Source: Escherichia coli (GTDB lineage: Bacteria > Pseudomonadota > Gammaproteobacteria > Enterobacterales > Enterobacteriaceae). Taken from it: DNA of 64,000 nucleotides. The position numbers and the translations under genes are program-made. The DNA lies in the NCBI RefSeq assembly GCF_003790525.1, contig NZ_CP033635.1. One strand, written 5' to 3'. The notes below the pieces were generated by a model. That model saw only the letters and a list, made by a program, of their open reading frames with translations, ran no database searches and was not told the origin of the DNA. Shown here piece after piece: positions 20,583 through 42,263 of this stretch (its first letter is position 1; each line of letters opens with the position of its first letter).

Positions 20583-21374
20583 ATGGGCCTTATGAACGCA
20601 TTTGATTCGCAAACCGAAGATTCTTCACCTGTAATTGGCCGCAACTTACGCAGCCGCCCGCTGGCGCGTAAAAAACTCTCCGAAATGGTGGAAGAAGAGC
20701 TGGAACAGATGATCCGCCGTCGTGAATTTGGCGAAGGTGAACAATTACCGTCTGAACGCGAACTGATGGCGTTCTTTAACGTCGGGCGTCCTTCGGTGCG
20801 TGAAGCGCTGGCAGCGTTAAAACGCAAAGGTCTGGTGCAGATAAACAACGGCGAACGCGCTCGCGTCTCACGTCCTTCTGCGGACACCATCATCGGCGAG
20901 CTTTCCGGCATGGCGAAAGATTTCCTTTCTCATCCTGGCGGGATTGCCCATTTCGAACAATTACGTCTGTTCTTTGAATCCAGCCTGGTGCGCTATGCGG
21001 CTGAACACGCTACCGATGAGCAAATCGATTTGCTGGCAAAAGCACTGGAAATCAACAGTCAGTCGCTGGATAACAACGCGGCATTCATTCGTTCAGACGT
21101 TGATTTCCACCGCGTGCTGGCGGAGATCCCCGGTAACCCAATCTTCATGGCGATCCACGTTGCCCTGCTCGACTGGCTGATCGCCGCACGTCCAACCGTG
21201 GCTGATCAGGCTCTGCACGAGCATAACAACGTTAGCTATCAACAGCATATTGCGATCGTTGACGCGATCCGCCGCCACGATCCCGATGAAGCCGATCGCG
21301 CGTTGCAATCGCATCTCAACAGCGTCTCTGCTACCTGGCACGCCTTCGGTCAGACCACCAACAAAAAGAAATAA
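20583..21374 (+). CDS. nanR: GntR/FadR-family sialic acid regulon repressor NanR (263 aa)
   Basis: Full ORF; recognised as NanR; directly upstream of nanATEK. Confidence 0.95.
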
Positions 21375-21437
21375 TGCCACTTTAGTGAAGCAGATCGCAT
21401 TATAAGCTTTCTGTATGGGGTGTTGCTTAATTGATCT

Positions 21438-21460
21438 GGTATAACAGGTATAAAGGTATA
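21438..21460 (+). promoter_or_regulatory. NanR operator: three tandem GGTATA repeats in the nanA promoter
   Basis: GGTATAacaGGTATAaaGGTATA seen directly ~40 bp upstream of nanA; matches the described NanR site. Confidence 0.85.
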
Positions 21461-21495
21461 TCGTTTATCAGACAAGCATCACTTCAGAGGTATTT

Positions 21496-22389
21496 ATGGC
21501 AACGAATTTACGTGGCGTAATGGCCGCACTCCTGACTCCTTTTGATCAACAACAAGCACTGGATAAAGCGAGTCTGCGTCGCCTGGTTCAGTTCAATATT
21601 CAGCAGGGCATCGACGGTTTATACGTGGGTGGTTCTACCGGCGAAGCCTTTGTACAAAGCCTTTCCGAGCGTGAACAGGTACTGGAAATCGTCGCCGAAG
21701 AGGCGAAAGGCAAGATTAAACTCATCGCTCACGTAGGTTGCGTCAGCACCGCCGAAAGCCAACAACTTGCGGCATCGGCTAAACGTTATGGCTTCGATGC
21801 CGTCTCCGCCGTCACACCGTTCTACTATCCTTTCAGCTTTGAAGAACACTGCGATCACTATCGGGCAATTATTGATTCAGCGGATGGTTTGCCGATGGTG
21901 GTGTACAACATTCCGGCGTTAAGTGGCGTTAAACTGAGCCTGGATCAGATCAACACTCTGGTTACGTTGCCAGGTGTTGGCGCGCTGAAACAGACCTCTG
22001 GCGATCTCTATCAGATGGAGCAGATCCGTCGTGAACATCCGGATCTGGTGCTCTATAACGGTTACGACGAAATCTTCGCCTCTGGTCTTCTGGCGGGCGC
22101 TGATGGTGGTATCGGTAGTACCTACAACATCATGGGCTGGCGTTATCAGGGCATTGTTAAGGCGCTGAAAGAAGGCGATATCCAGACCGCGCAGAAGCTG
22201 CAAACCGAATGTAATAAAGTCATTGATTTACTGATCAAAACGGGCGTATTCCGCGGCCTGAAAACGGTCCTCCATTATATGGATGTCGTTTCTGTGCCGC
22301 TGTGCCGCAAACCGTTTGGTCCGGTAGATGAAAAATATCTGCCAGAACTGAAGGCGCTGGCCCAGCAGTTGATGCAAGAGCGCGGGTGA
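21496..22389 (+). CDS. nanA: N-acetylneuraminate lyase (297 aa)
   Basis: Full ORF; recognised as NanA. Confidence 0.97.
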
Positions 22390-22497: not shown

Positions 22498-23988
22498 ATG
22501 AGTACTACAACCCAGAATATCCCGTGGTATCGCCATCTTAACCGCGCACAATGGCGGGCATTTTCCGCTGCCTGGTTGGGATATCTGCTTGACGGTTTTG
22601 ATTTCGTTTTAATCGCCCTGGTACTCACCGAAGTACAGGGTGAATTCGGGCTGACGACGGTGCAGGCGGCAAGTCTGATCTCCGCAGCCTTTATCTCTCG
22701 CTGGTTCGGCGGCCTGATGCTCGGCGCTATGGGTGACCGCTACGGGCGTCGTCTGGCAATGGTCACCAGCATCGTTCTCTTCTCGGCCGGGACGCTGGCC
22801 TGCGGCTTTGCGCCAGGCTACATCACCATGTTTATCGCTCGTCTGGTCATCGGCATGGGGATGGCGGGTGAATACGGTTCCAGCGCCACCTATGTCATTG
22901 AAAGCTGGCCAAAGCATCTGCGTAACAAAGCCAGTGGTTTTCTGATTTCCGGCTTCTCAGTGGGGGCCGTCGTTGCCGCTCAGGTCTATAGCCTGGTGGT
23001 TCCGGTCTGGGGCTGGCGTGCGCTGTTCTTTATCGGCATTTTGCCAATCATCTTTGCTCTCTGGCTGCGTAAAAACATCCCGGAAGCGGAAGACTGGAAA
23101 GAGAAACACGGGGGTAAAGCACCGGTACGCACGATGGTAGACATTCTTTACCGTGGTGAACATCGCATTGCCAATATCGTAATGACACTGGCGGCGGCTA
23201 CTGCGCTGTGGTTCTGCTTCGCCGGTAACCTGCAAAATGCCGCGATCGTCGCTGTTCTTGGGCTGTTATGCGCCGCAATCTTTATCAGCTTTATGGTGCA
23301 GAGTACGGGCAAACGCTGGCCAACGGGCGTAATGCTGATGGTGGTCGTGTTGTTTGCTTTCCTCTACTCATGGCCGATTCAGGCGCTGCTGCCAACGTAT
23401 CTGAAAACCGATCTGGCTTATGACCCGCATACTGTCGCCAATGTGCTGTTCTTTAGTGGCTTTGGCGCGGCGGTGGGGTGCTGCGTCGGTGGCTTCCTCG
23501 GTGACTGGCTGGGAACCCGCAAAGCGTACGTTTGTAGTCTGCTGGCCTCGCAGCTGCTGATTATTCCGGTATTTGCGATTGGCGGCGCAAACGTCTGGGT
23601 GCTCGGTCTGTTACTGTTCTTCCAGCAAATGCTTGGACAAGGGATCGCCGGGATCTTACCGAAACTGATTGGCGGTTATTTCGATACCGACCAGCGTGCA
23701 GCGGGCCTGGGCTTTACCTACAACGTTGGCGCATTGGGCGGCGCACTGGCCCCAATCATCGGCGCGTTGATCGCTCAACGTCTGGATCTGGGTACTGCGC
23801 TGGCATCGCTCTCGTTCAGTTTGACGTTTGTGGTGATCCTGCTGATTGGTCTGGATATGCCTTCTCGCGTTCAGCGTTGGCTGCGCCCGGAAGCATTGCG
23901 TACTCATGACGCTATCGACGGCAAACCATTTAGCGGTGCCGTGCCATTTGGCAGCGCCAAAAACGATTTAGTCAAAACCAAAAGTTAA
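22498..23988 (+). CDS. nanT: Sialic acid transporter NanT (MFS, 496 aa)
   Basis: Internal Met [14 protein letters not shown]... of track ORF 22468..23988; recognised as NanT. Confidence 0.95.
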
Positions 23989-24035: not shown

Positions 24036-24721
24036 ATGTCGTTACTTGCACAACTGGATCAAAAAATCGCTGCTAACGGTGGCCTGATTGTCTCCTGCCA
24101 GCCGGTTCCTGACAGCCCGCTCGATAAACCCGAAATCGTCGCAGCCATGGCATTAGCGGCAGAGCAGGCGGGCGCGGTTGCCATTCGCATCGAAGGTGTG
24201 GTAAATCTGCAAGCCACGCGTGCGGTGGTGAGCGTGCCAATTATCGGGATTGTCAAACGCGATCTGGAGGATTCTCCGGTACGTATCACGGCCTATATTG
24301 AAGATGTCGATGCGCTGGCGCAGGCGGGCGCGGACATTATCGCCATTGACGGCACCGACCGCCCGCGTCCGGTGCCTGTTGAAACGCTGCTGGCACGTAT
24401 CCATCATCACGGTTTACTGGCGATGACCGACTGCTCAACGCCGGAAGACGGCCTGGCATGCCAAAAGCTGGGAGCCGAAATTATTGGCACTACGCTTTCT
24501 GGCTATACCACGCCTGAAACGCCAGAAGAGCCGGATCTGGCGCTGGTGAAAACGTTGAGCGACGCCGGATGTCGAGTGATTGCCGAAGGGCGTTACAACA
24601 CGCCTGCTCAGGCGGCGGATGCGATGCGCCACGGCGCGTGGGCGGTGACGGTCGGTTCTGCCATTACGCGTCTTGAACACATTTGTCAGTGGTACAACAC
24701 AGCGATGAAAAAGGCGGTGCT

Positions 24722-24725
<4 letters not shown>
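24036..24725 (+). CDS. nanE: N-acetylmannosamine-6-phosphate 2-epimerase NanE (229 aa)
   Basis: Internal Met [24 protein letters not shown]...; recognised as NanE. Confidence 0.94.
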
Positions 24726-26058
<1,333 letters not shown>

Positions 26059-26204
26059 ACGTATTCGCTCAGGCAGGGGGCGCTGGTTGGGAACTCAACG
26101 TTGGCATGGTTTCGCTGCTCTTGTGTAGATGTGTTGCAGTTATTTGCGACATTCCGCCGGAGTAGCGGAACTATGGAAAACGGCAATTGGCGCTCTTATC
26201 CCTT

Positions 26205-26236
26205 AGCTTTGTAAGGCTTAATTTTGGTAGAATGGG
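26205..26236 (+). promoter_or_regulatory. Candidate sigma70 promoter with extended -10 (TGgTAGAAT) for the AT-rich two-gene module
   Basis: TGGTAGAAT at 26225-26233 seen directly; the -35 is weak (TTGTAA or TTAGCT with non-ideal spacing). Confidence 0.35.
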
Positions 26237-26264
26237 GAATCGTTTAACGGAAAAAAACAATCAG

Positions 26265-26759
26265 ATGATTTCTTTTCTATCCGATGAATTTGAGGAATTT
26301 CCGCAGGGAGATTTTTTAAATCATCTCTATAGGTTTTCGGTAGACCATCATCATTTTATCGTGATATTTAGCCCTATTGATATTAGCGATGCGGAGTACC
26401 ATCAATACCGTAGCGAGGAAGTTGGATTTGAAATCCCAACTAATTGTTTTGATGTGAAATTTGATAGGCAAGAAAACTTTGATAGTGGTAACTTTTACAT
26501 GCCCCCCGCCGCAACTGAATGCTCGAGGCGCAGACGCTTTACTGATGAACTCGCAGAGGCGCTAGCAACGATTATTGAAAAGCATTACATCATTTATCAT
26601 GCCAGGGCTTATCTTGCCATCGCAGAGAATGACAAGTTGAAACGTTACTATGACCGGATTTTACACAATGCCCCGGCTAATGTAGCATATAGAGTAATCA
26701 AAGATGTTGGAGAGGAGGAACGAGGTTATGCCATACAAACCGAATGTTTCCGAACTTAA
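26265..26759 (+). CDS. Hypothetical acidic protein (~164 aa from ATG 26265; alternative starts 26232 or 26187), no recognised domain
   Basis: Single long ORF in an AT-rich (~40% GC by eye) segment; MISFLSDEFEEFPQGDFLNHLYRF...; no motif I recognise; start ambiguous, weak RBS. Confidence 0.6.
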   Translation: MISFLSDEFEEFPQGDFLNHLYRFSVDHHHFIVIFSPIDISDAEYHQYRSEEVGFEIPTNCFDVKFDRQENFDSGNFYMPPAATECSRRRRFTDELAEALATIIEKHYIIYHARAYLAIAENDKLKRYYDRILHNAPANVAYRVIKDVGEEERGYAIQTECFRT

Positions 26760-26874
26760 GAAAATGACTGTTGCAGAGCGCAAGAAAGAAGCCATGCGCC
26801 AGCTTAAAGCATCCTTTGAGCGCGCCAGCATTGAAGGGACTTTGCATAAACGCTCTGCAAAGTCTGTTGCGTAA
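26728..26874 (+). CDS. Hypothetical small basic protein (48 aa), overlaps the 3' end of the preceding ORF by 32 nt in another frame
   Basis: Strong RBS GAGGAGG 7-13 nt upstream of ATG 26728; MPYKPNVSELKKMTVAERKKEAMRQLKASFERASIEGTLHKRSAKSVA; below the ORF-track length cutoff, found by reading. Confidence 0.5.
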   Translation: MPYKPNVSELKKMTVAERKKEAMRQLKASFERASIEGTLHKRSAKSVA

Positions 26875-26888
26875 TGAAAGATTTCAAT

Positions 26889-26914
26889 AACCCGCTGCGG
26901 CGGGCCTTTTTTTG
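26889..26914. terminator. Rho-independent terminator 15 nt after the small ORF (possibly bidirectional, facing the convergent VWA gene)
   Basis: cccgctgcggcgggcctttttttg: GC stem plus T7 run. Confidence 0.75.
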
Positions 26915-27095
26915 CCCTCAGAAAATCCCCTCTGACCTGCCTCAGGGATTATATACAACCTTCAGTTAATTAGCTGCGCACCATACGCGGCCCGAGCCTT
27001 ATCGCCTTGTTCAAATTCGACAATTCGTCGGCCAATTTCCCCGAACGTCGCGGTGCTAAGTACCGTATCCGTCCGGGCGTATCCGGCCAGAATTT

Positions 27096-28265
27096 TCAGG
27101 CGGTTTCTCTTGCTGTCACTACGCCATTTTGCGCAGCCCACAGATTCACATCTTCCTTACGAATGGCGGCGGCCATCATGCCGGGGAATAAATCTGGGGT
27201 ACAGGCAAAGGAGGGAATACCCATGGCGGCGAGTTTTCCTGCCAGTGACCGGTCGTAAAACGGCGCACCTTCATCGCTTAAGGCCAGCAGGGTAACCACC
27301 TGTACGCCGGACTGAATCAACTCACTGGCGCGTTGCAACAGATTGCGTTCCACCCCGCCTTCGTAGAGGTCGGAAATCAGCACCAGAATGGTATTGCGCG
27401 GATCGCGAATCAAAGACTGGCAGTAGCCCACCGCGCGGTTGATGTCGGTGCCGCCACCCAGCTGTACGCCAAACAGCAGCTCTACCGGATCGTCGAGCTT
27501 CTCTGTCATATCAACGACTGCGGTGTCGAAAACCACCAGATGCGTTTTTACCGCCGGGAGCGATGCCATTACTGCGCCAAAAATACTGGAATAGACCACC
27601 GAGGAGGCCATCGACCCACTCTGGTCGATACATAAAATGATCTCCTTTTGCGTGCGTTGAGACTTGCGCCCGTAGCCGATCAGCGTTTCAGGAACAATAC
27701 TTTTATACTCTTCCTGCCAGTGGCGCAGGTTGGCGCGAATGGTGCGCTGCCAGTCAATTTCCGCGTGGCGCGGGCGACGATTACGTACCGCACGATTAAG
27801 AGCGCCGCTTACCGCGCTACGCATTGGCTCTTCAAGCTGTTTCATCAATTGCTCGACAACTTTACGCACCACAAGCCTGGCGGTTTCTTTGGTTTTGGCC
27901 GGAATTACGCCATTCAGCGACATCAGCGTGGAGACCAGATGAACATCAGGCTGGACGTTTGCCAGCATCTCCGGCTCCAGCAACATACTGTGCAAATTAA
28001 GACGTTCAAAGGCGTCTTTTTGCATCACCTGAACCACAGAAGAAGGGAAATACTGGCGAATATCACCCAGCCAGCGAGCGACTTTGGGTGACGATCCACC
28101 CGTGCCGCCGCGTAATCCATGTTTACCCTCTGGCTGATACAGCGCCGCCAGCGCGGCATCAATCGCGGACTCTCTGGCATCCAGCGCCACGTTACAGGCA
28201 TTGTCGGCATCTTCTCCAAGGATCAGACGCCAGCGGCGCAGCCGTTCCATTTCGTTACTCGACAT
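27096..28265 (-). CDS. von Willebrand factor A (VWA) domain protein with complete MIDAS motif (389 aa); fifth gene of novel operon
   Basis: DQSGSM (DxSxS), GGGTD and LISDLYEGG motifs seen in the translation; start overlaps the upstream gene's stop by 11 nt. Confidence 0.85.
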   Translation of the reverse strand: MSSNEMERLRRWRLILGEDADNACNVALDARESAIDAALAALYQPEGKHGLRGGTGGSSPKVARWLGDIRQYFPSSVVQVMQKDAFERLNLHSMLLEPEMLANVQPDVHLVSTLMSLNGVIPAKTKETARLVVRKVVEQLMKQLEEPMRSAVSGALNRAVRNRRPRHAEIDWQRTIRANLRHWQEEYKSIVPETLIGYGRKSQRTQKEIILCIDQSGSMASSVVYSSIFGAVMASLPAVKTHLVVFDTAVVDMTEKLDDPVELLFGVQLGGGTDINRAVGYCQSLIRDPRNTILVLISDLYEGGVERNLLQRASELIQSGVQVVTLLALSDEGAPFYDRSLAGKLAAMGIPSFACTPDLFPGMMAAAIRKEDVNLWAAQNGVVTARETA

Positions 28266-30504
28266 GATTTTCCCTTTCGTGTGGTGGCAAAGCCAGAATG
28301 CGGCGCAGTAGCGGCAGCATTAACGCGGCACGCTGTTCATCCCATATACCGCTGGTCTCTTCTTGCTGCGCGACACGCTCGCCCTGCGCGGCGCGTTCGC
28401 CTAACTGGCGGCGTTCCGGGCTGGAAAAACGGCCGAATGTCCGCCGCAGCATCGGCAGGATCCGGGTGAAGTGATTGTCGTTCAGGCCGCTTAGCCAGGC
28501 ATCGATCAACTGCCATAATTCGCTATTGTGCAGTAGCACCATCGCGCTGTCGTTGAGGAAACCTTCCGCCCATGCGGCACTTTCCGCCGGGGGATTGGCT
28601 GGCGATAGCGCCAGGTTCATCAGCGTGCTGATCCGTTCTGTCGTTAACGTTTGCAGATCAAACAACAGGCGCGTCGCCGTTCCGCGAAGCAGCGCGTGTG
28701 CGGTACTGCCCTCTGCCAGCACCATCAACGCCTGCAACCAGCCCGCCAATAGATCTTCGTTATCCAGCAACCGCAGCGCGGCGTGGGCGTCGATAACTTT
28801 TTCTCTCATACTGGCGGCGCTGTCGTCGTTGAGCGCCGAACAGGCTCCGGGTAGGGCGATGGCGGCGCGCGGGGCGAGGCTCATCAGTACCTGCATTACC
28901 ATACCAGAGTCGGTCTGGCGCACGTTGCCGTAGCGGACAATCGCCACCAGTGGTGCCAGGGCTTCCAGCAACTGTTCGATATTGCCCTGAGTGGCAGCCA
29001 GTGATTCCAGTGTATTGGCGATGGGGGCAATCGCGGTCTGTAAATCGGCCAGTAGCACCTGTTGGATAAGCTTTGCCAGTTCCGGCAGCGTGCTGGCGTA
29101 TTGCGCCCTCACAATGGCATAGCGGGAGCTGGCCTGCTCAATGCTGTTACCCCAACGGCTGGCGGTAATGATGTTGATTGCCAGTGCCGGTTCCCAGCGC
29201 AGCGACCAGACTTCGTGGAACGTCCCTTTGCTGTTATTTCCTTGTCCAGCCAGACGGCCCCAGGAAATGTCGAGTAAGGTCAGGCGATGCAGTAAATGGC
29301 TACGCGCCAGATCGCCGGGTTTGCGCAGATCAAGATCCAGCACTTTTTCGCTGGCTTCTGCCTTCAGGCGCAGCGTTTTTTGCTGTTGCGTAATGTCGCG
29401 TTGGAGCGGCACGACGGGCGTATCATCCGGTACGCTTCCCAGCGCGTCGCCGACAATTAACTTCTGGCGAATCATCTGCATTGGCGCGCTTTCGCCCATA
29501 CACACTACGGTTTGCAGCGCTTCGCAAAGTTCGTCAAGCCCCGGCTGCGGGTGATGGCGCATAATCGCCAGCGTCTGCGCCAGCCGCGCCGCTTCGATAA
29601 TGTGGGCGCTGGAACAGTCGAGATCGGCTTCGCGAAACAGCCTTGCCGCGCGTGACAGCCAGCCGATATCGCGGTGAGAAGCGCCCTGATAACGCCACAG
29701 ATGATCGTACCATTCCGGTGACACCACCCCTGCGCCATAACCGCTGGCGCGGCTTAACGCCTCGTAGCTCCAGGGCGTCCAGGCTGCCGCGACCTTGCAC
29801 TTCGGCAAATTTTTCAGCAGTTCGTTATCATTCTTTGCGGGCGGCAGGTTTTCCAGCGCCGGAACGTGCCACGCACCGCAGACTACCGCGATGCGCGAGA
29901 AGCCCTCTTTTTTCGCCTGACGTAGCGTCTTGCGCATATACGCTTCACGCAGTTGATCTCTGGCTGAGTTTCGGGCTTCGGGAGTTGCCTGGCGTAGGGC
30001 AATCATCGCCTCGCGAATCGCCTCGAACAGAGACAAATCATCTTCGCGTTCCTCTACTCTGTGGCTCCACCAGCTTTCCCCATCGGTGTAACCGGCGGCG
30101 CGGCCCAGCCAGTCCAGCGGATCGCCGTCGGGACTGGCTTCAACGGCATCATCGTCATCGCTCTCTTTTTCGTCATCAAGCGCGAACTGATGACTGATGG
30201 GCAAGTCCATAAAGCGCACGGCGATATTTTGCTCAAAACCATAGCGCAGCGCCTGCCATTCCGGGGAGAACGCCGCAAAGGGGTAAAACGCGGCGTGATG
30301 TGAGTCGTCCGGGGCATAAATCAGTAGCGCGACCGGCGGTTGCATCTGTTCATGCTGCATAAAAGGCAGGATGGATTCGCCGTCGGGCGGCCCTTCCACC
30401 AGCAGGCAGTCGGGCTGTAGCGTCTCCAGCGCCTTTCGCAGGCTGCGCGCGCAGCCAGGGCCATGGTGACGGATGCCAAACAAATGAACGGTTTGTTCAG
30501 TCAT
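28255..30504 (-). CDS. Large hypothetical protein (749 aa), no motif recognised; fourth gene of novel operon
   Basis: Uninterrupted 2.25-kb ORF; AAGG RBS in the 17-nt gap after the AAA+ gene; acidic stretch DDEKESDDDDAVEASPDGD; helical Leu/Ala-rich C-terminal half. Confidence 0.8.
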   Translation of the reverse strand: MTEQTVHLFGIRHHGPGCARSLRKALETLQPDCLLVEGPPDGESILPFMQHEQMQPPVALLIYAPDDSHHAAFYPFAAFSPEWQALRYGFEQNIAVRFMDLPISHQFALDDEKESDDDDAVEASPDGDPLDWLGRAAGYTDGESWWSHRVEEREDDLSLFEAIREAMIALRQATPEARNSARDQLREAYMRKTLRQAKKEGFSRIAVVCGAWHVPALENLPPAKNDNELLKNLPKCKVAAAWTPWSYEALSRASGYGAGVVSPEWYDHLWRYQGASHRDIGWLSRAARLFREADLDCSSAHIIEAARLAQTLAIMRHHPQPGLDELCEALQTVVCMGESAPMQMIRQKLIVGDALGSVPDDTPVVPLQRDITQQQKTLRLKAEASEKVLDLDLRKPGDLARSHLLHRLTLLDISWGRLAGQGNNSKGTFHEVWSLRWEPALAINIITASRWGNSIEQASSRYAIVRAQYASTLPELAKLIQQVLLADLQTAIAPIANTLESLAATQGNIEQLLEALAPLVAIVRYGNVRQTDSGMVMQVLMSLAPRAAIALPGACSALNDDSAASMREKVIDAHAALRLLDNEDLLAGWLQALMVLAEGSTAHALLRGTATRLLFDLQTLTTERISTLMNLALSPANPPAESAAWAEGFLNDSAMVLLHNSELWQLIDAWLSGLNDNHFTRILPMLRRTFGRFSSPERRQLGERAAQGERVAQQEETSGIWDEQRAALMLPLLRRILALPPHERENHVE

Positions 30505-30521
30505 AGTGGTTGCCTTGCTGA

Positions 30522-31616
30522 TTACACAATTTCGCGGCAGGCGCGATAGAGATCGTTCCAGTCGCTGCGCTCTTTGACTATAGTTTCCAGATATTCACGC
30601 CATACCACGTCGTCCTGCACGGGATCTTTTACCACCGCGCCGATAAGGCTTGCGGCGATATCCCGCGGATGTAGCACGCCGTCGCCAAAATGGCCCGCCA
30701 GCGCCATACCGTTGTTGATAACGGAGATCGCCTCCGCGGTGCTGAGAGTACTGGTTGGCGACTTAATTTTCGTTTTGCCGTCAACCGTCAGGCCGTTTCG
30801 CAGTTCGCGGAAGATTTGCACGACTCGCTGGATCTCTTTAAGCGCTGGCGGTTCGGCAGGAAGTGCCAGCGCCTGACCCAGTTCGGCGACGCGGCGAGTG
30901 ACAATGTTAATCTCTTCTTCTTCGCTGGCGGGTACGGGCAAAATGACCGTGTTGAAACGACGTTTAAGTGCGGAAGAAAGCTCGTTAACGCCTTTATCCC
31001 GGTTGTTGGCGGTGGCGATAACGTTAAAGCCGCGCGTCGCCTGGACCTCTTCATTCAGTTCGGGGATAGGCAGCGTTTTTTCCGACAGGATCGTGATCAG
31101 CGTGTCCTGAACATCGGCAGGAATACGCGTCAGCTCTTCTACGCGGGCAATCTGCCCGCGTGCCATCGCCCGCATCAATGGGCTTTCTACCAGCGCCGAA
31201 CGTGACGGACCTTTAGAGAGCAACTCCGCGTAGTTCCAGCCATAACGCATTTGTTCTTCACCGGTGCCTGCGGTGCCCTGAATAATTAACGTTGAGTCGC
31301 CGCTGATGGCAGCCGCCAGATGTTCAGAGACCCAGGATTTCGCAGTGCCGGGTACGCCATACAACAGCAGTGCGCGATCGGTTGCCAGCGTGGCAACGGC
31401 GGTTTCGATAATCCGCCTGTTGCCGATATATTTCGGCGTGACCTCAAAACCATTTTCCAGTTGCCCGCCTAACAGATAAGTAGCAACGGACCACGGAGAA
31501 ATAGCCCAGTTTTCCGGGCGCGGATGAGTATCGTTTTTTTGCAGCTCATCCAGTTCTTCTGCAAATTGTTGTTCGGCATGTCGGCGTAAAACGGCGGCAG
31601 TAGCGGTGGAAGTCAT
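30522..31616 (-). CDS. MoxR-like AAA+ ATPase (364 aa from ATG 31616); third gene of novel operon
   Basis: Walker A LLLYGVPGTAKS (GxPGxAKS, MoxR-type), Walker B-like IARVEELTRIPADVQ, sensor-1 NVIATANN, Arg finger LKRRF; ATG overlaps the upstream stop as ATGA. Confidence 0.85.
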   Translation of the reverse strand: MTSTATAAVLRRHAEQQFAEELDELQKNDTHPRPENWAISPWSVATYLLGGQLENGFEVTPKYIGNRRIIETAVATLATDRALLLYGVPGTAKSWVSEHLAAAISGDSTLIIQGTAGTGEEQMRYGWNYAELLSKGPSRSALVESPLMRAMARGQIARVEELTRIPADVQDTLITILSEKTLPIPELNEEVQATRGFNVIATANNRDKGVNELSSALKRRFNTVILPVPASEEEEINIVTRRVAELGQALALPAEPPALKEIQRVVQIFRELRNGLTVDGKTKIKSPTSTLSTAEAISVINNGMALAGHFGDGVLHPRDIAASLIGAVVKDPVQDDVVWREYLETIVKERSDWNDLYRACREIV

Positions 31617-33217
31617 AAAGTAGTTTCTCCGACAAAAAACGAATGAAGTTGAATTCGGTGCGCCAGCGTGGCGCTCAGGGCAGTAAAGGCTGCCTCGCAA
31701 TAAGGCGTTTGTTGTGCGTCATGCGGCCACTTGTCAATGACATCATTGAGGACTTCGGGGGCCAGCAGGCAGGCGAAATCACTCATCACATGGCGCAGGG
31801 CGTAGTCAAAGCGCGCGGAATCATGTTTCACCCAACGGTGCAGCTCCGTGACCATTTGCTGGCTCAGGCGCAGGCTAAAGAGCGACGCATCCAGCGGTAA
31901 CAGGGCGATGTAGCGTTGTAAATGTTCGCCGCCCATTACCGAGAACAGTAACGTCAACACTGGCTCGTGTTCTTCTACGGGCAGGCATTGCAGAAGCTCA
32001 AAGGCGTTAATCTTCACGCCAGCAGGGGAATGAATGCTTATTCCGACGGGGAGTAGGGCGAGGAATGCCTGCGCCCACTGTGGATTTTTTTCGCGCAGGA
32101 CGGCGTGATACCAGGCGCGCAGTAGCGCCTCCTGCCAGTCGGTTTTCCCGGCCCAGCGCAGCAGTTCAACGGGGGTAGCCTGCAGTTGCGTTTGCCACCA
32201 GTCGAGCGGAACCGCTGCAACTATCTGATACAGCCACCATGCGCGCTGGCCCAACTTTTCGCCTTTGGGCTTAGTTTCTTCCAGCGCATCGGCCTTCCAC
32301 TCTGGTAAGAACGCCTCCGGGGCATCAAGGGCGACGCGCAGCATTTTTTCTTTGCCGGATAAGCCTTTTAGCCTTTCAAGTAAGGTCTCAGGAGCGGGGG
32401 ATGAACTGAGCAACGGCGCTAACCGAGACTTCATGCGCGAGATCCAGGCGCTTTCCGGCAGACAACACAGTAACCGTGCCGCAGTTTGCCGCACCTCTTT
32501 GCTGCGATCGGATAATGTCTGTTCCAGAAAGGCTTCGTCGTGTTGGGAGATCCCCACTTCCAGCACAGCCAGCAGCTGTGCGCGTTCGCGGGCATCCAGC
32601 GAACTCATCTCCTGCGCCAGCCGATCGCGACCCTGTTCCGGGGCGCGAATGCGCATTTGCGTCAGATATTGCAGACGCTGTTCGGACGTGCCGTGCAGCC
32701 ACATTTCTTCATCCAGCGGAGCGTCAGTGGAGGCGAGAACATAGCCCCAATCGGCGTTGATTTGCGCCAGCCAGCACCCGCGAGCGCCCAGAACATTGGA
32801 CAGGATGCCGCGTAGAGATGGCTTTTGCGCTCCATAATTCAGCAATGCTGGTAACAGCAGGGGCGGAGGAAGAAGTTGACGACGGACCAATAGATCAAGC
32901 GCCGACCACAGCAACCGCGGCGGTCCTTCTGACAGCAGCAGATGCAGCAGTCCCGCAAAAGCCGGGTTGTTTATTGGCTCGGCATTTTCTTTATCGATTT
33001 CCGGCAGCGGTGCGGGGTCAATCGCCTGCGGCACCCAGCCAGCCAGATGGCAGAGCGCCAGAACGCCCGCCGAGCGCAGTAGCTGTTGCTCTGCGGATGT
33101 GTTATTCGCCAGTTCAGACAGTAACAGCCCAATCTCACTTTGCGACGCCGACGGTGTAAACGCTTTTTTGTCTGTGCCGAGTAGCGCTGTGCGGGTTAAA
33201 TTTTGCCATTCGTTCAT
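31613..33217 (-). CDS. Hypothetical alpha-helical Leu-rich protein (534 aa from ATG 33217; 541 aa if 33238); second gene of novel operon
   Basis: Long ORF; ATG at 33217 forms an ATGA overlap with the SWIM gene stop; Leu/Ala/Trp-rich repeat-like sequence; no catalytic motif recognised. Confidence 0.8.
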   Translation of the reverse strand: MNEWQNLTRTALLGTDKKAFTPSASQSEIGLLLSELANNTSAEQQLLRSAGVLALCHLAGWVPQAIDPAPLPEIDKENAEPINNPAFAGLLHLLLSEGPPRLLWSALDLLVRRQLLPPPLLLPALLNYGAQKPSLRGILSNVLGARGCWLAQINADWGYVLASTDAPLDEEMWLHGTSEQRLQYLTQMRIRAPEQGRDRLAQEMSSLDARERAQLLAVLEVGISQHDEAFLEQTLSDRSKEVRQTAARLLCCLPESAWISRMKSRLAPLLSSSPAPETLLERLKGLSGKEKMLRVALDAPEAFLPEWKADALEETKPKGEKLGQRAWWLYQIVAAVPLDWWQTQLQATPVELLRWAGKTDWQEALLRAWYHAVLREKNPQWAQAFLALLPVGISIHSPAGVKINAFELLQCLPVEEHEPVLTLLFSVMGGEHLQRYIALLPLDASLFSLRLSQQMVTELHRWVKHDSARFDYALRHVMSDFACLLAPEVLNDVIDKWPHDAQQTPYCEAAFTALSATLAHRIQLHSFFVGETTL

Positions 33218-34536
33218 TGTGCGCCTCCGGTTGCCCAAATGACGCTACCGGCAAGCCAGGCGCTACAGGGCGTCAGCTGCTGACCATCCCATTCCCCCAT
33301 TAGCATAAACGGCGCGCCGCCGCTGGCCGCCAGTAACCGCCAACCCTCGTCCGACGACAGGTGCGTCGGTAAGTGCTGGCCCTGTGTCGAGACGAATCGC
33401 CAGCCGCTCTCGTGCGGGTAAATCAATATTTCGCTTACTCGCAGCGGCAGAGGCCATTGCCAGGGATTCGCGCTAAGCCGCTGCGCCATGTCATGCAGCG
33501 CGTCCGGGAGGGGTAATTCTGCAAGCGGGAATCTTTCACCGCGGGTAAACGGCTCCACAACCCGCGCCCGTAGCGGTGATGCGCCAGGGAAAAAGGCAAG
33601 CGCGCCCTGGCAGACTTGCCCGGTGATAAAGTGCTGGGGAAAGTTTTTACTACCGTGTGAATAGTCCAGCAGTAGCGCGGTGCGGTGGCTCTTTTCTCCG
33701 TACAGCCAGACCCGGCGTCGCCACAGATTATTCCCTTCTTGCGCGCTTTGACCTAAGACCTGCCAGTTATCGAGGCAGGTTAATCCGTCAGTGACGTCGT
33801 GTTTATCCGGGGGTATTCCCAATGCCGCATGGAGATCGCTAAGTTGTGCCGGGGATAACATTTGTTGCTGGCGCCAGGCGTCAATAATCAGCTGTAGCTG
33901 CCCCAGTTCTTTGCACAGGCTCGATGGCCATACCTCGGCGGTAGTAAAATGAGTGGTCAGATTGTTCAGGCGAGCGGCAATTCCCGGTAGTTGGGCGTCG
34001 ACCATGCGGGCGGCGATCCCGGCAAAAGGCAACTGTTGTGCAGAGATCTGCGCCAGACCGTGGCGGATCAGGTCGTGCATCCACTGTTCGAGGAAATCCA
34101 GCCCCGCCGTCATTTTTTGGTTGCGTGCCGCTTCCCGTTTGGCGGCAGCCTGCGGGTCGGCAGCTTTTGCCTCAGCCTGCTCTTTCTTCTCTTCTTTGCG
34201 AACCGCCCGCTGCTGGCGCGAGGTTAGCCACTCGCTTACCCATTCCGGCGGCTCGCCAGCGGTGAAACTTGCGGTGTGTTGCACCTGGAGAAAAAGCAAC
34301 GCAAGGCTATGTTTACAGGGGAATTTACGGCTGGGGCAGGAACATTTACAGGCCAGATCCTGTCTGTCGATTCGTACCTGATAAGGGCGGGAGCCGCTAC
34401 CTTTACACTCTCCCCAGAAGGCAGCCTCGCTATATCCGAGCGTCGGCCATTTTGCGGGAGCAACCAGGCCACGAGCCGCTTTAACCGAGGCGTCATCGGG
34501 CGCCAGGGCTTGCACTGATTCAACGGTCAGTTCCAT
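33214..34536 (-). CDS. SWIM zinc-finger domain protein (440 aa); first gene of novel operon
   Basis: CxCxnCxH signature at residues 63-76 (ACKCSCPSRKFPCKHSLALLF); first ORF downstream of gltD on the same strand. Confidence 0.85.
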   Translation of the reverse strand: MELTVESVQALAPDDASVKAARGLVAPAKWPTLGYSEAAFWGECKGSGSRPYQVRIDRQDLACKCSCPSRKFPCKHSLALLFLQVQHTASFTAGEPPEWVSEWLTSRQQRAVRKEEKKEQAEAKAADPQAAAKREAARNQKMTAGLDFLEQWMHDLIRHGLAQISAQQLPFAGIAARMVDAQLPGIAARLNNLTTHFTTAEVWPSSLCKELGQLQLIIDAWRQQQMLSPAQLSDLHAALGIPPDKHDVTDGLTCLDNWQVLGQSAQEGNNLWRRRVWLYGEKSHRTALLLDYSHGSKNFPQHFITGQVCQGALAFFPGASPLRARVVEPFTRGERFPLAELPLPDALHDMAQRLSANPWQWPLPLRVSEILIYPHESGWRFVSTQGQHLPTHLSSDEGWRLLAASGGAPFMLMGEWDGQQLTPCSAWLAGSVIWATGGAQ

Positions 34537-41333: not shown

Positions 41334-42263
41334 ATGCAGTTACAGAAATTAGTCAATATGTTTGGTGGTGATCTCACCCGTCGTTATGGGCAAAAGGTGC
41401 ATAAGCTGACGCTGCACGGCGGTTTTAGCTGCCCTAACCGTGACGGTACCATCGGGCGTGGTGGCTGCACATTCTGTAATGTGGCCTCGTTTGCCGATGA
41501 AGCGCAGCAGCATCGTTCCATTGCCGAGCAACTGGCGCACCAGGCGAATTTAGTTAACCGCGCTAAACGCTATCTGGCCTACTTTCAGGCGTATACCAGC
41601 ACCTTTGCGGAAGTTCAGGTGCTGCGTTCTATGTATCAGCAGGCGGTGAGCCAGGCCAATATTGTCGGTTTGTGTGTTGGTACCCGCCCGGACTGCGTGC
41701 CGGATGCGGTGCTGGATCTGCTTTGCGAATATAAGGACCAGGGTTACGAAGTGTGGCTGGAGCTGGGGCTACAAACCGCCCACGACAAAACGCTGCATCG
41801 CATCAATCGCGGTCATGATTTTGCCTGTTATCAGCGCACGACGCAGCTGGCGCGTGAGCGTGGGCTGAAGGTGTGTTCTCACTTAATTGTCGGCCTGCCT
41901 GGCGAAGGGCAGGCTGAATGTTTGCAAACGCTGGAGCGAGTCGTTGAAACTGGCGTGGACGGCATAAAGCTGCATCCGCTGCATATTGTGAAAGGCAGCA
42001 TTATGGCGAAAGCCTGGGAAGCGGGGCGTTTGAACGGTATTGAACTGGAAGATTACACGCTCACTGCCGGAGAAATGATTCGCCATACGCCACCGGAAGT
42101 GATCTACCACCGCATTTCCGCCAGCGCCCGTCGCCCGACGCTGCTTGCTCCTCTGTGGTGCGAAAATCGCTGGACGGGAATGGTCGAGCTGGATCGTTAT
42201 CTGAATGAACATGGCGTACAGGGATCGGCGCTGGGACGTCCGTGGCTACCTCCAACGGCGTAG
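41334..42263 (+). CDS. yhcC: Radical SAM family protein YhcC (309 aa)
   Basis: MQLQKLVNMFGGDL...; cysteine cluster CPNRDGTIGRGGCTFC; recognised as YhcC. Confidence 0.9.
   Translation: MQLQKLVNMFGGDLTRRYGQKVHKLTLHGGFSCPNRDGTIGRGGCTFCNVASFADEAQQHRSIAEQLAHQANLVNRAKRYLAYFQAYTSTFAEVQVLRSMYQQAVSQANIVGLCVGTRPDCVPDAVLDLLCEYKDQGYEVWLELGLQTAHDKTLHRINRGHDFACYQRTTQLARERGLKVCSHLIVGLPGEGQAECLQTLERVVETGVDGIKLHPLHIVKGSIMAKAWEAGRLNGIELEDYTLTAGEMIRHTPPEVIYHRISASARRPTLLAPLWCENRWTGMVELDRYLNEHGVQGSALGRPWLPPTA

What the first reader, a model, noticed from the sequence alone, without database searches (positions are those of the whole stretch)
21438..21460. NanR operator: three GGTATA repeats in the nanA promoter
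This is the known repressor site of the sialic acid regulon. Its integrity shows the nan operon next to the accessory region is intact and normally regulated.
Basis: partly seen in the sequence, partly recalled or inferred. Interest (0 to 1): 0.12.

Follow-up and report, generated by a model that had tools for sequence, protein, structure and literature searches.

The report
Known NanR operator before nanA
This is the well-characterised three-repeat DNA site where the E. coli repressor NanR shuts off the sialic-acid utilisation genes; it is base-for-base identical to the laboratory-strain site, so it is real but ordinary.

Summary
Three direct GGTATA hexamers lie at 21438-21443, 21447-21452 and 21455-21460 (+ strand), with spacers ACA and AA. 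The triple occurs once in the window and in 0 of 100 shuffles. It sits in the 121-bp gap between nanR (20583-21374) and nanA (21496-22389), 58 to 36 nt upstream of the nanA ATG.

The window is E. coli chromosome. The whole intergenic region is identical to K-12 MG1655, the strain in which the operator was defined. A 37-bp segment around the site matches in 5384 of 5426 complete E. coli genomes. In two Enterobacter species it is the core of a 31-nt invariant block inside an otherwise diverged spacer.

The adjacent NanR differs from the solved protein (PDB 6ON4) only by A17V and T207A, and keeps every published DNA-, Neu5Ac- and Zn-contact residue. The genes nanA, nanT, nanE, nanK and nanQ are full length.

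Published mechanism: three NanR dimers bind cooperatively over the -10 region, occlude RNA polymerase, and are released by N-acetylneuraminate.

Its inference that operator integrity shows an intact, normally regulated operon is logically weak, but separate gene checks uphold intactness. Normal regulation cannot be tested from sequence. Already known; low interest.

The parts
21438..21460 (+). NanR operator: (GGTATA)3 direct-repeat element GGTATAACAGGTATAAAGGTATA
   Evidence: unique in the window, 0/100 shuffles. Identical to K-12. Core of a 31-nt invariant block shared with Enterobacter. Published operator: PMC8012715, PMC3658417.
21438..21443 (+). GGTATA repeat 1 (58 nt upstream of the nanA ATG)
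21447..21452 (+). GGTATA repeat 2 (9 nt after the start of repeat 1)
21455..21460 (+). GGTATA repeat 3 (8 nt after the start of repeat 2)
21440..21454 (+). Two -10-like hexamers embedded in the repeats: TATAAC (21440-21445) and TATAAA (21449-21454). Candidate nanA promoter -10; which one is used is not established here.
   Evidence: each matches TATAAT at 5 of 6 positions. Review PMC8786299 states that the repeats overlap the -10 element. The simple two-hexamer sigma-70 scan found no full promoter match, as expected for an activator-dependent promoter with a poor -35.
21384..21399 (+). Putative CRP site AGTGA-AGCAGA-TCGCA (inferred)
   Evidence: It has 2 mismatches to TGTGA-N6-TCACA and is not significant on its own (14 such sites in the window against 24.5 expected). 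The half-sites are conserved in both Enterobacter species, and the 6-nt spacer varies in one of them (L110). CRP activation of nanATEK is stated in PMC12562284, citing Kalivoda 2003/2013.
21486..21490 (+). Ribosome-binding site AGAGG, 5 nt before the nanA ATG
   Evidence: Read directly from the sequence. GAGGTAT and the ATG (GAGGTATyTATGGC) are conserved in Enterobacter.
20583..21374 (+). nanR, the GntR/FadR-family repressor (263 aa) that binds the operator
   Evidence: NCBIfam NF003011 scores 408.9 bits against a cut-off of 260. Matches PDB 6ON4/6WFQ/6WG7 over 263/263 residues with only A17V and T207A. All named DNA, Neu5Ac and Zn residues are retained.
21496..22389 (+). nanA, N-acetylneuraminate lyase, first gene controlled by the operator
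   Evidence: TIGR00683 scores 570 bits. 297 aa, 1 aa difference from K-12.
22498..23988 (+). nanT, sialic acid:H+ symporter
   Evidence: 496 aa, 3 aa differences from K-12.
24036..24725 (+). nanE, ManNAc-6-P 2-epimerase
   Evidence: 229 aa, 1 aa difference.
24722..25597 (+). nanK, N-acetylmannosamine kinase
   Evidence: 291 aa, 8 aa differences.
25594..26058 (+). nanQ (yhcH), N-acetylneuraminate anomerase, last gene of the operon
   Evidence: 154 aa, 4 aa differences.

Best explanation
The element is the NanR operator of the E. coli nanATEK-yhcH(nanQ) sialic-acid catabolic operon. Without sialic acid, three dimers of NanR, encoded immediately upstream, bind cooperatively. One dimer centres on each GGTATA hexamer, and cooperativity depends on NanR's 32-residue N-terminal extension. 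Because the hexamers overlap the -10 region of the nanA promoter, the complex sterically blocks RNA polymerase. When N-acetylneuraminate (Neu5Ac) enters the cell it binds, with Zn2+, in the C-terminal domain of NanR. This locks the DNA-binding domain in a closed conformation, weakens DNA binding and derepresses the operon. cAMP-CRP, probably acting at 21384-21399, supplies activation.

Shown here: the sequence, its position, its identity to the characterised site, its conservation, and the integrity of NanR and the operon. Taken from the literature: binding stoichiometry, cooperativity, the inducer, and the overlap with -10. Inferred: the exact -10 and transcription start, the CRP site, and that this strain behaves like K-12.
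For: Three GGTATA hexamers with 3- and 2-nt spacers, unique in the window, 0/100 shuffles.

The site lies in the nanR-nanA spacer on the coding strand of nanA.

The 121-bp spacer has 0 differences from K-12, while the five operon genes differ at 141 of 4416 nt (3.2%). About 3.9 differences would be expected in the spacer, P(0) about 0.02.

The 37-bp segment matches in 5384 of 5426 complete E. coli genomes, at >=99% identity over the aligned part in 5354.

The 23-bp core is exact, and sits inside a 31-nt invariant block, in two Enterobacter species whose NanR is about 83% identical and whose flanking spacer has diverged.

The same core, preceded by TGATCT, occurs upstream of the other two sialoregulon operons, nanXY and nanCMS, in K-12.

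NanR matches PDB 6ON4/6WFQ/6WG7 with only A17V and T207A, and all published contact residues are present.

The mechanism comes from PMC8012715 (three dimers, Hill n about 2, KD 20-39 nM, Neu5Ac attenuates binding). PMC8786299 gives the overlap with -10 and steric occlusion. PMC3658417 describes three repeats separated by 2-3 nt and up to 1000-fold nanA induction.
Against: Nothing contradicts the explanation.

Limits: the primary footprinting and S1-mapping papers (Kalivoda 2003, 2013) are not in the held library, so I could not check the transcription start or the footprint borders against window coordinates.

The simple sigma-70 scan finds no canonical -35/-10 pair.

The CRP site is only a 2-mismatch match and is not significant by itself.

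The NanR allele here carries A17V inside the N-terminal extension that mediates cooperativity; its effect is untested.
Confidence: 0.97

Rival explanations
1. The three hexamers are a chance or slippage-generated AT-rich repeat in an intergenic region, with no regulatory role.
For: Single GGTATA hexamers are common in the window (21 copies). The same triple pattern occurs by chance or as microsatellites in many unrelated genomes (for example 9-bp tandem arrays in L006 and L015).
Against: The triple occurs in 0/100 shuffles of this window. It is exactly conserved in about 99% of E. coli genomes and in Enterobacter inside a diverged spacer. It recurs at the two other NanR-controlled operons. Direct binding and cryo-EM data exist for this sequence (PMC8012715).
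Confidence: 0.01
2. The operator is intact, but regulation in this strain departs from K-12 because the NanR allele (A17V in the cooperativity-mediating N-terminal extension; T207A, four residues after Arg203, which contacts Neu5Ac from the alpha8-alpha9 loop) changes cooperativity or inducer response. 'Normally regulated' would then not hold.
For: There are two substitutions relative to the structurally characterised protein. Residue 17 lies within the 32-residue extension shown to be needed for higher-order assembly (PMC8012715). Residue 207 is near Arg203, which moves to contact Neu5Ac.
Against: Both changes are conservative. None of the 26 named DNA-, ligand-, Zn- or interface residues is changed. 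The same NanR protein accession (WP_000523850.1) is annotated in two other E. coli strains, LS45 and FDAARGOS_497, so it is a naturally occurring allele rather than a private lesion.
Confidence: 0.04
3. The repeats act mainly as core promoter sequence (-10 hexamers TATAAC/TATAAA) or as the site of a different regulator, and NanR binding is secondary.
For: Two hexamers matching TATAAT at 5 of 6 positions lie inside the repeats. The G-G dinucleotides are not needed for a -10.
Against: The functions are not exclusive: overlap of operator and -10 is the published repression mechanism (PMC8786299). The GG of every repeat and the spacer lengths are invariant across genera and across the three sialoregulon operators, which promoter function alone does not explain. 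Lengthening the spacers or reducing to one repeat abolishes NanR binding (PMC8012715).
Confidence: 0.02

Closest known systems
NanR operator of the E. coli K-12 nanATEK-yhcH operon (Kalivoda et al. 2003, 2013; Horne et al. 2021, PDB 6WG7)
   Same: Identical sequence over the entire nanR-nanA spacer. Same flanking genes, orientation and distance to the nanA ATG. Same repressor apart from two conservative substitutions.
   Different: Nothing in the element itself. The host strain differs from K-12 at 3.2% of nucleotides in the operon genes and carries a different gene set downstream of nanQ.
NanR operators of the other sialoregulon operons, nanXY (yjhBC) and nanCMS, in K-12
   Same: They share TGATCTGGTATAACAGGTATAAAGGT. 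The nanXY site has the identical 23-bp core.
   Different: They lie elsewhere on the chromosome, outside this window. The nanC site has a degenerate third repeat (GGTGCA). The downstream flanks differ.
Typical GntR/FadR-family operators (for example FadR: a single palindromic site bound by one dimer)
   Same: Recognised by a winged-helix GntR-type DNA-binding domain. An effector bound in the C-terminal FCD-type domain releases the DNA.
   Different: Here the site is three direct repeats at 8-9 bp spacing, bound by three dimers cooperatively through an N-terminal extension. [quoted passage not shown]

Membership tests
E. coli NanR (GGTATA)3 operator | [quoted passage not shown] | tested here: met
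   GGTATA-ACA-GGTATA-AA-GGTATA at 21438-21460. Definition from PMC3658417.
E. coli NanR (GGTATA)3 operator | Located upstream of a sialoregulon operon (here between nanR and nanA), on the coding strand | tested here: met
   nanR 20583-21374 and nanA 21496-22389, both on the + strand. The operator lies 58 to 36 nt upstream of the ATG.
E. coli NanR (GGTATA)3 operator | Sequence identity with the experimentally characterised K-12 site | tested here: met
   Alignment A1: all 150 shared columns are identical to MG1655.
E. coli NanR (GGTATA)3 operator | Cognate NanR repressor present, with the N-terminal extension and the DNA-contact residues | tested here: met
   263 aa. NF003011 scores 408.9 bits against a cut-off of 260. 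Full-length match to 6ON4 with A17V and T207A only. S33, E58, R59, G68, R69, S71, R73, N89 and E91 are retained.
E. coli NanR (GGTATA)3 operator | Evolutionary conservation above the surrounding spacer | tested here: met
   31-nt invariant block in the alignment with two Enterobacter species. A match in 5384/5426 E. coli genomes.
E. coli NanR (GGTATA)3 operator | Overlaps the -10 element or transcription start of the regulated promoter | tested here: inconclusive
   -10-like TATAAC and TATAAA hexamers lie inside the repeats, and review PMC8786299 states the overlap with -10. The mapped start site (Kalivoda 2003) could not be read, and the consensus scan found no full promoter.
E. coli NanR (GGTATA)3 operator | Bound by NanR in vitro and in vivo, and released by Neu5Ac | not testable with these tools
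   Shown for the identical K-12 sequence in PMC8012715. Not measured for this strain.
CRP-activated promoter | CRP site matching TGTGA-N6-TCACA at an activating distance from the transcription start | tested here: inconclusive
   AGTGA-N6-TCGCA at 21384-21399 has 2 mismatches and is not enriched. The half-sites are conserved in Enterobacter. The distance to the start site is unknown here. CRP dependence is stated in PMC12562284.

The most novel reading that the evidence does not exclude
The direct-repeat GGTATA operator may be much older and more widespread than the E. coli sialoregulon. In the truncated species-wide scan, (GGTATA)3 with 2-3-nt spacers also lies immediately upstream of NanR-like GntR genes in a Sphingomonadales MAG (L069, 53% identity to NanR) and a Synergistales genome (L028, 35% identity). 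If these are real sites, cooperative multi-dimer assembly on hexamer repeats would be a conserved mode of a GntR subfamily across phyla rather than an E. coli peculiarity. Nothing about the element in this window itself is novel.
Probability: 0.3. Interest if true: 0.25.

Novelty: already known. Interest (0 to 1): 0.05.

Why it matters
For this window it matters only as annotation. It confirms that the sialic-acid catabolic operon carries its native control region unchanged. It also confirms that the variable segment downstream of nanQ has not disturbed nanR, the operator or any nan gene. The element is textbook-level knowledge, with footprinting, biophysics and cryo-EM already published for the identical sequence.

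Tried and rejected
1. I tried to read the primary mapping papers (Kalivoda 2003 PMID 12897000 / PMC166481; Kalivoda 2013 PMC3807447; Vimr 2004 PMC362108). None is held, so the transcription start and footprint borders could not be placed on window coordinates.

2. The consensus sigma-70 and terminator scan of 21300-21560 found nothing. This is uninformative for a CRP-dependent promoter.

3. An Rfam search of 21200-21700 at E<=1 found no RNA family. I rejected the idea that the repeats belong to a known structured leader RNA.

Most hits were unrelated Bacteroidota and other matches, so it cannot give a phylogenetic distribution. Only 4 of the 120 loci had a NanR homologue nearby.

5. The CRP consensus search showed that the candidate site is not statistically distinctive. 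I keep it only as an inference supported by conservation.

6. A PADLOC scan of the neighbouring accessory operon found no hit.

Full report
**Observation.** Reading 21200-21700 shows GGTATAACAGGTATAAAGGTATA at 21438-21460 on the + strand. The exact GGTATA hexamers are at 21438, 21447 and 21455. Single hexamers are not clearly enriched in the window: 21 were found against 13.2 +/- 4.0 expected, and 4 of 100 shuffles reach 21. The clustered triple with 2-3-nt spacers occurs once, and never in 100 dinucleotide-preserving shuffles. No second copy exists even with three mismatches allowed.

**Context.** The flanking ORFs score above the curated NCBIfam cut-offs as follows:
- NanR, 20583-21374: 408.9 bits against a cut-off of 260.
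- N-acetylneuraminate lyase NanA, 21496-22389: 570 bits.
- The sialate:H+ symporter NanT, the epimerase NanE, the kinase NanK and the anomerase NanQ/YhcH.

All are on the + strand. The window is E. coli chromosome and differs at 2 of 64000 positions from strain LS45, NZ_CP095448.1 540479-604478. The repeats lie in the 121-bp nanR-nanA spacer, 58 to 36 nt upstream of the nanA ATG.

**Comparison with the characterised site.** Aligning 21360-21510 with K-12 MG1655 (NC_000913.3) gives identity at all 150 shared positions. By contrast, the five operon genes differ from K-12 at 141 of 4416 nt (3.2%). About 3.9 differences would therefore be expected in the spacer, and P(0) is about 0.02. This hints at constraint on the control region.

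A 261-bp query across the spacer matches 5409 of 5426 complete E. coli genomes. A 37-bp query centred on the operator matches 5384, with >=99% identity over the aligned part in 5354. The evenly spaced listing shows exact 37/37 matches down to at least about rank 5000. Extra places per genome in that search are explained by the other sialoregulon operators. In K-12, the nanXY (yjhBC) upstream region carries the identical 23-bp core preceded by TGATCT. The nanCMS upstream region carries the same sequence with a degenerate third repeat, GGTGCA.

**Beyond E. coli.** A tblastn of the window's Nan proteins against the 120 returned loci found four loci with a NanR homologue beside the repeats. In two Enterobacter species (L016, L110; NanR about 83% identical) the operator lies between nanR and nanA as here. 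An alignment of the spacers shows a 31-nt invariant block, TCTGGTATAACAGGTATAAAGGTATATCGTT, within flanks that have diverged. This is a phylogenetic footprint of the operator. The same alignment conserves the two half-sites of a CRP-like motif, AGTGA-N6-TCGCA at 21384-21399, while the 6-nt spacer between them varies in one of the two species (L110). It also conserves the ribosome-binding region.

**The repressor.** The window's NanR matches the PDB chains 6ON4, 6WFQ and 6WG7 over all 263 residues, with only A17V and T207A. Every residue that Horne et al. name is present:
- DNA contacts: S33, E58, R59, G68, R69, S71, R73, N89, E91.
- Neu5Ac binding: R128, N165, F168, D172, H176, I200, R203, H214, N215, S218, Q221, H244, L245.
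- Zn2+ coordination: D172, H176, H222, H244.

[quoted passage not shown] A17V lies within it.

**Mechanism.** This is taken from the literature for the identical sequence.
- One repeat is not enough, and two repeats give two complexes.
- Lengthening the spacers by six nucleotides attenuates binding.
- Deleting residues 1-32 abolishes the higher-order complexes.
- Neu5Ac binds with Zn2+ and attenuates DNA binding (PMC8012715).

A review from the same field states that the three-repeat sequence overlaps the -10 element and classifies the mechanism as steric occlusion of RNA polymerase (PMC8786299). In the window, two hexamers matching TATAAT at 5 of 6 positions, TATAAC (21440-21445) and TATAAA (21449-21454), sit inside the repeats, consistent with that statement. 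The operon is reported to be activated by CRP and repressed by NanR (PMC12562284). nanA is reported to be induced up to 1000-fold by sialic acid (PMC3658417).

**What could not be established.** The S1-mapping and footprint papers (Kalivoda 2003, 2013) are not held. I therefore cannot say which -10 is used or where +1 lies. The consensus promoter scan found no canonical pair. The CRP candidate is a 2-mismatch site that is not enriched in the window, so it stays an inference backed by conservation and literature. No Rfam family matches the region.

The identification is correct. The added claim, that the operator's integrity shows the operon is intact and normally regulated, does not follow from the operator alone. 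I tested intactness directly. All six genes are full length with proper starts and stops, and each of the five operon proteins is within 1-8 amino-acid changes of K-12. Normal regulation is likely, given an identical control region and a near-identical repressor, but it is not provable from sequence.

The 'accessory region' exists. From 26187 to 34536, between nanQ and gltD, the window carries two small hypothetical ORFs, a 123-bp remnant of yhcG, and a minus-strand five-gene operon. The operon encodes a SWIM zinc-finger protein, DUF5691, an AAA_5/MoxR-like ATPase, DUF5682 and a VWA_CoxE protein. K-12 has yhcG-yhcF-yhcE-IS5 at this position. Only 33 of 5426 genomes carry at least 80% of window 26000-50000. 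The region starts 129 nt after the nanQ stop and leaves the nan operon untouched.

**Verdict.** This is a real, correctly located and correctly named feature that is already fully characterised. Novelty: already known. Interest: very low (0.05).

The only mildly new observation came from the side scan. (GGTATA)3 also lies directly upstream of NanR-like GntR genes in a Sphingomonadales MAG (L069; 53% identity) and a Synergistales genome (L028; 35% identity). This suggests the repeat-operator arrangement may extend well beyond Enterobacteriaceae. That lead is unverified.

Noticed in passing
window 26187-34536: Variable segment between nanQ and gltD. It holds a minus-strand five-gene operon: SWIM zinc finger (33214-34536), DUF5691 (31613-33217), AAA_5/MoxR-like ATPase (30522-31616), DUF5682 (28255-30504) and VWA_CoxE (27096-28265). 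It also holds two small hypothetical ORFs (26187-26874, +) with no Pfam match. The operon has Pfam hits but no PADLOC hit. Only 33 of 5426 complete E. coli genomes carry >=80% of window 26000-50000. Function unknown; the MoxR-VWA pairing resembles NTP-dependent conflict or chaperone systems (from my own knowledge, not tested).
   Followed up: partly
window 26968-27090: A 123-bp remnant of the DUF1016/PDDEXK nuclease gene yhcG, annotated as a pseudogene lacking both termini in strain LS45. K-12 has a full yhcG followed by yhcF, yhcE and IS5 here. Strain FDAARGOS_497 has the full nuclease gene directly next to gltD. This marks the nanQ-gltD junction as a site of repeated gene replacement.
   Followed up: partly
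L005 5625-5647 (+) and L005 about 41915-41943 (-), K-12 MG1655: The nanXY (yjhBC) operator has the identical 23-bp core and the same TGATCT upstream flank as the nanA operator. The nanCMS operator shares TGATCTGGTATAACAGGTATAAAGGT but has GGTGCA as its third repeat. This explains why up to four places per genome matched the 37-bp query.
   Followed up: yes
L069 1040-1062 (-) and L028 8520-8541 (-): (GGTATA)3 with 2-3-nt spacers lies immediately upstream of NanR-like GntR genes in a Sphingomonadales MAG (53% identity to NanR) and a Synergistales genome (35% identity). This may be the same operator arrangement in distant phyla.
   Followed up: partly
L006 9135-9221 (+) and L015 431-490 (+): Long 9-bp tandem arrays: (GGTATAACT)n in Pseudoalteromonas sp. 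TB64 and (GGTATAGAA)n in Shewanella sp. KT0246. No NanR homologue was found at E<=1e-10 in the held flanks. They are probably unrelated microsatellite-like repeats, but Vimr 2013 mentions nan operators in Pseudoalteromonas.
   Followed up: no
window 20583-21374 (NanR residues 17 and 207): The NanR allele differs from the K-12/PDB 6ON4 protein by A17V, within the cooperativity-mediating N-terminal extension, and by T207A, four residues after the Neu5Ac-contacting Arg203. The same protein accession, WP_000523850.1, is annotated in strains LS45 and FDAARGOS_497.
   Followed up: partly
window 21375-21495: The 121-bp nanR-nanA spacer has zero differences from K-12, although the five downstream genes differ at 3.2% of nucleotides. 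About 3.9 differences would be expected, P(0) about 0.02. This suggests purifying selection on the whole control region, not only on the 23-bp operator.
   Followed up: yes
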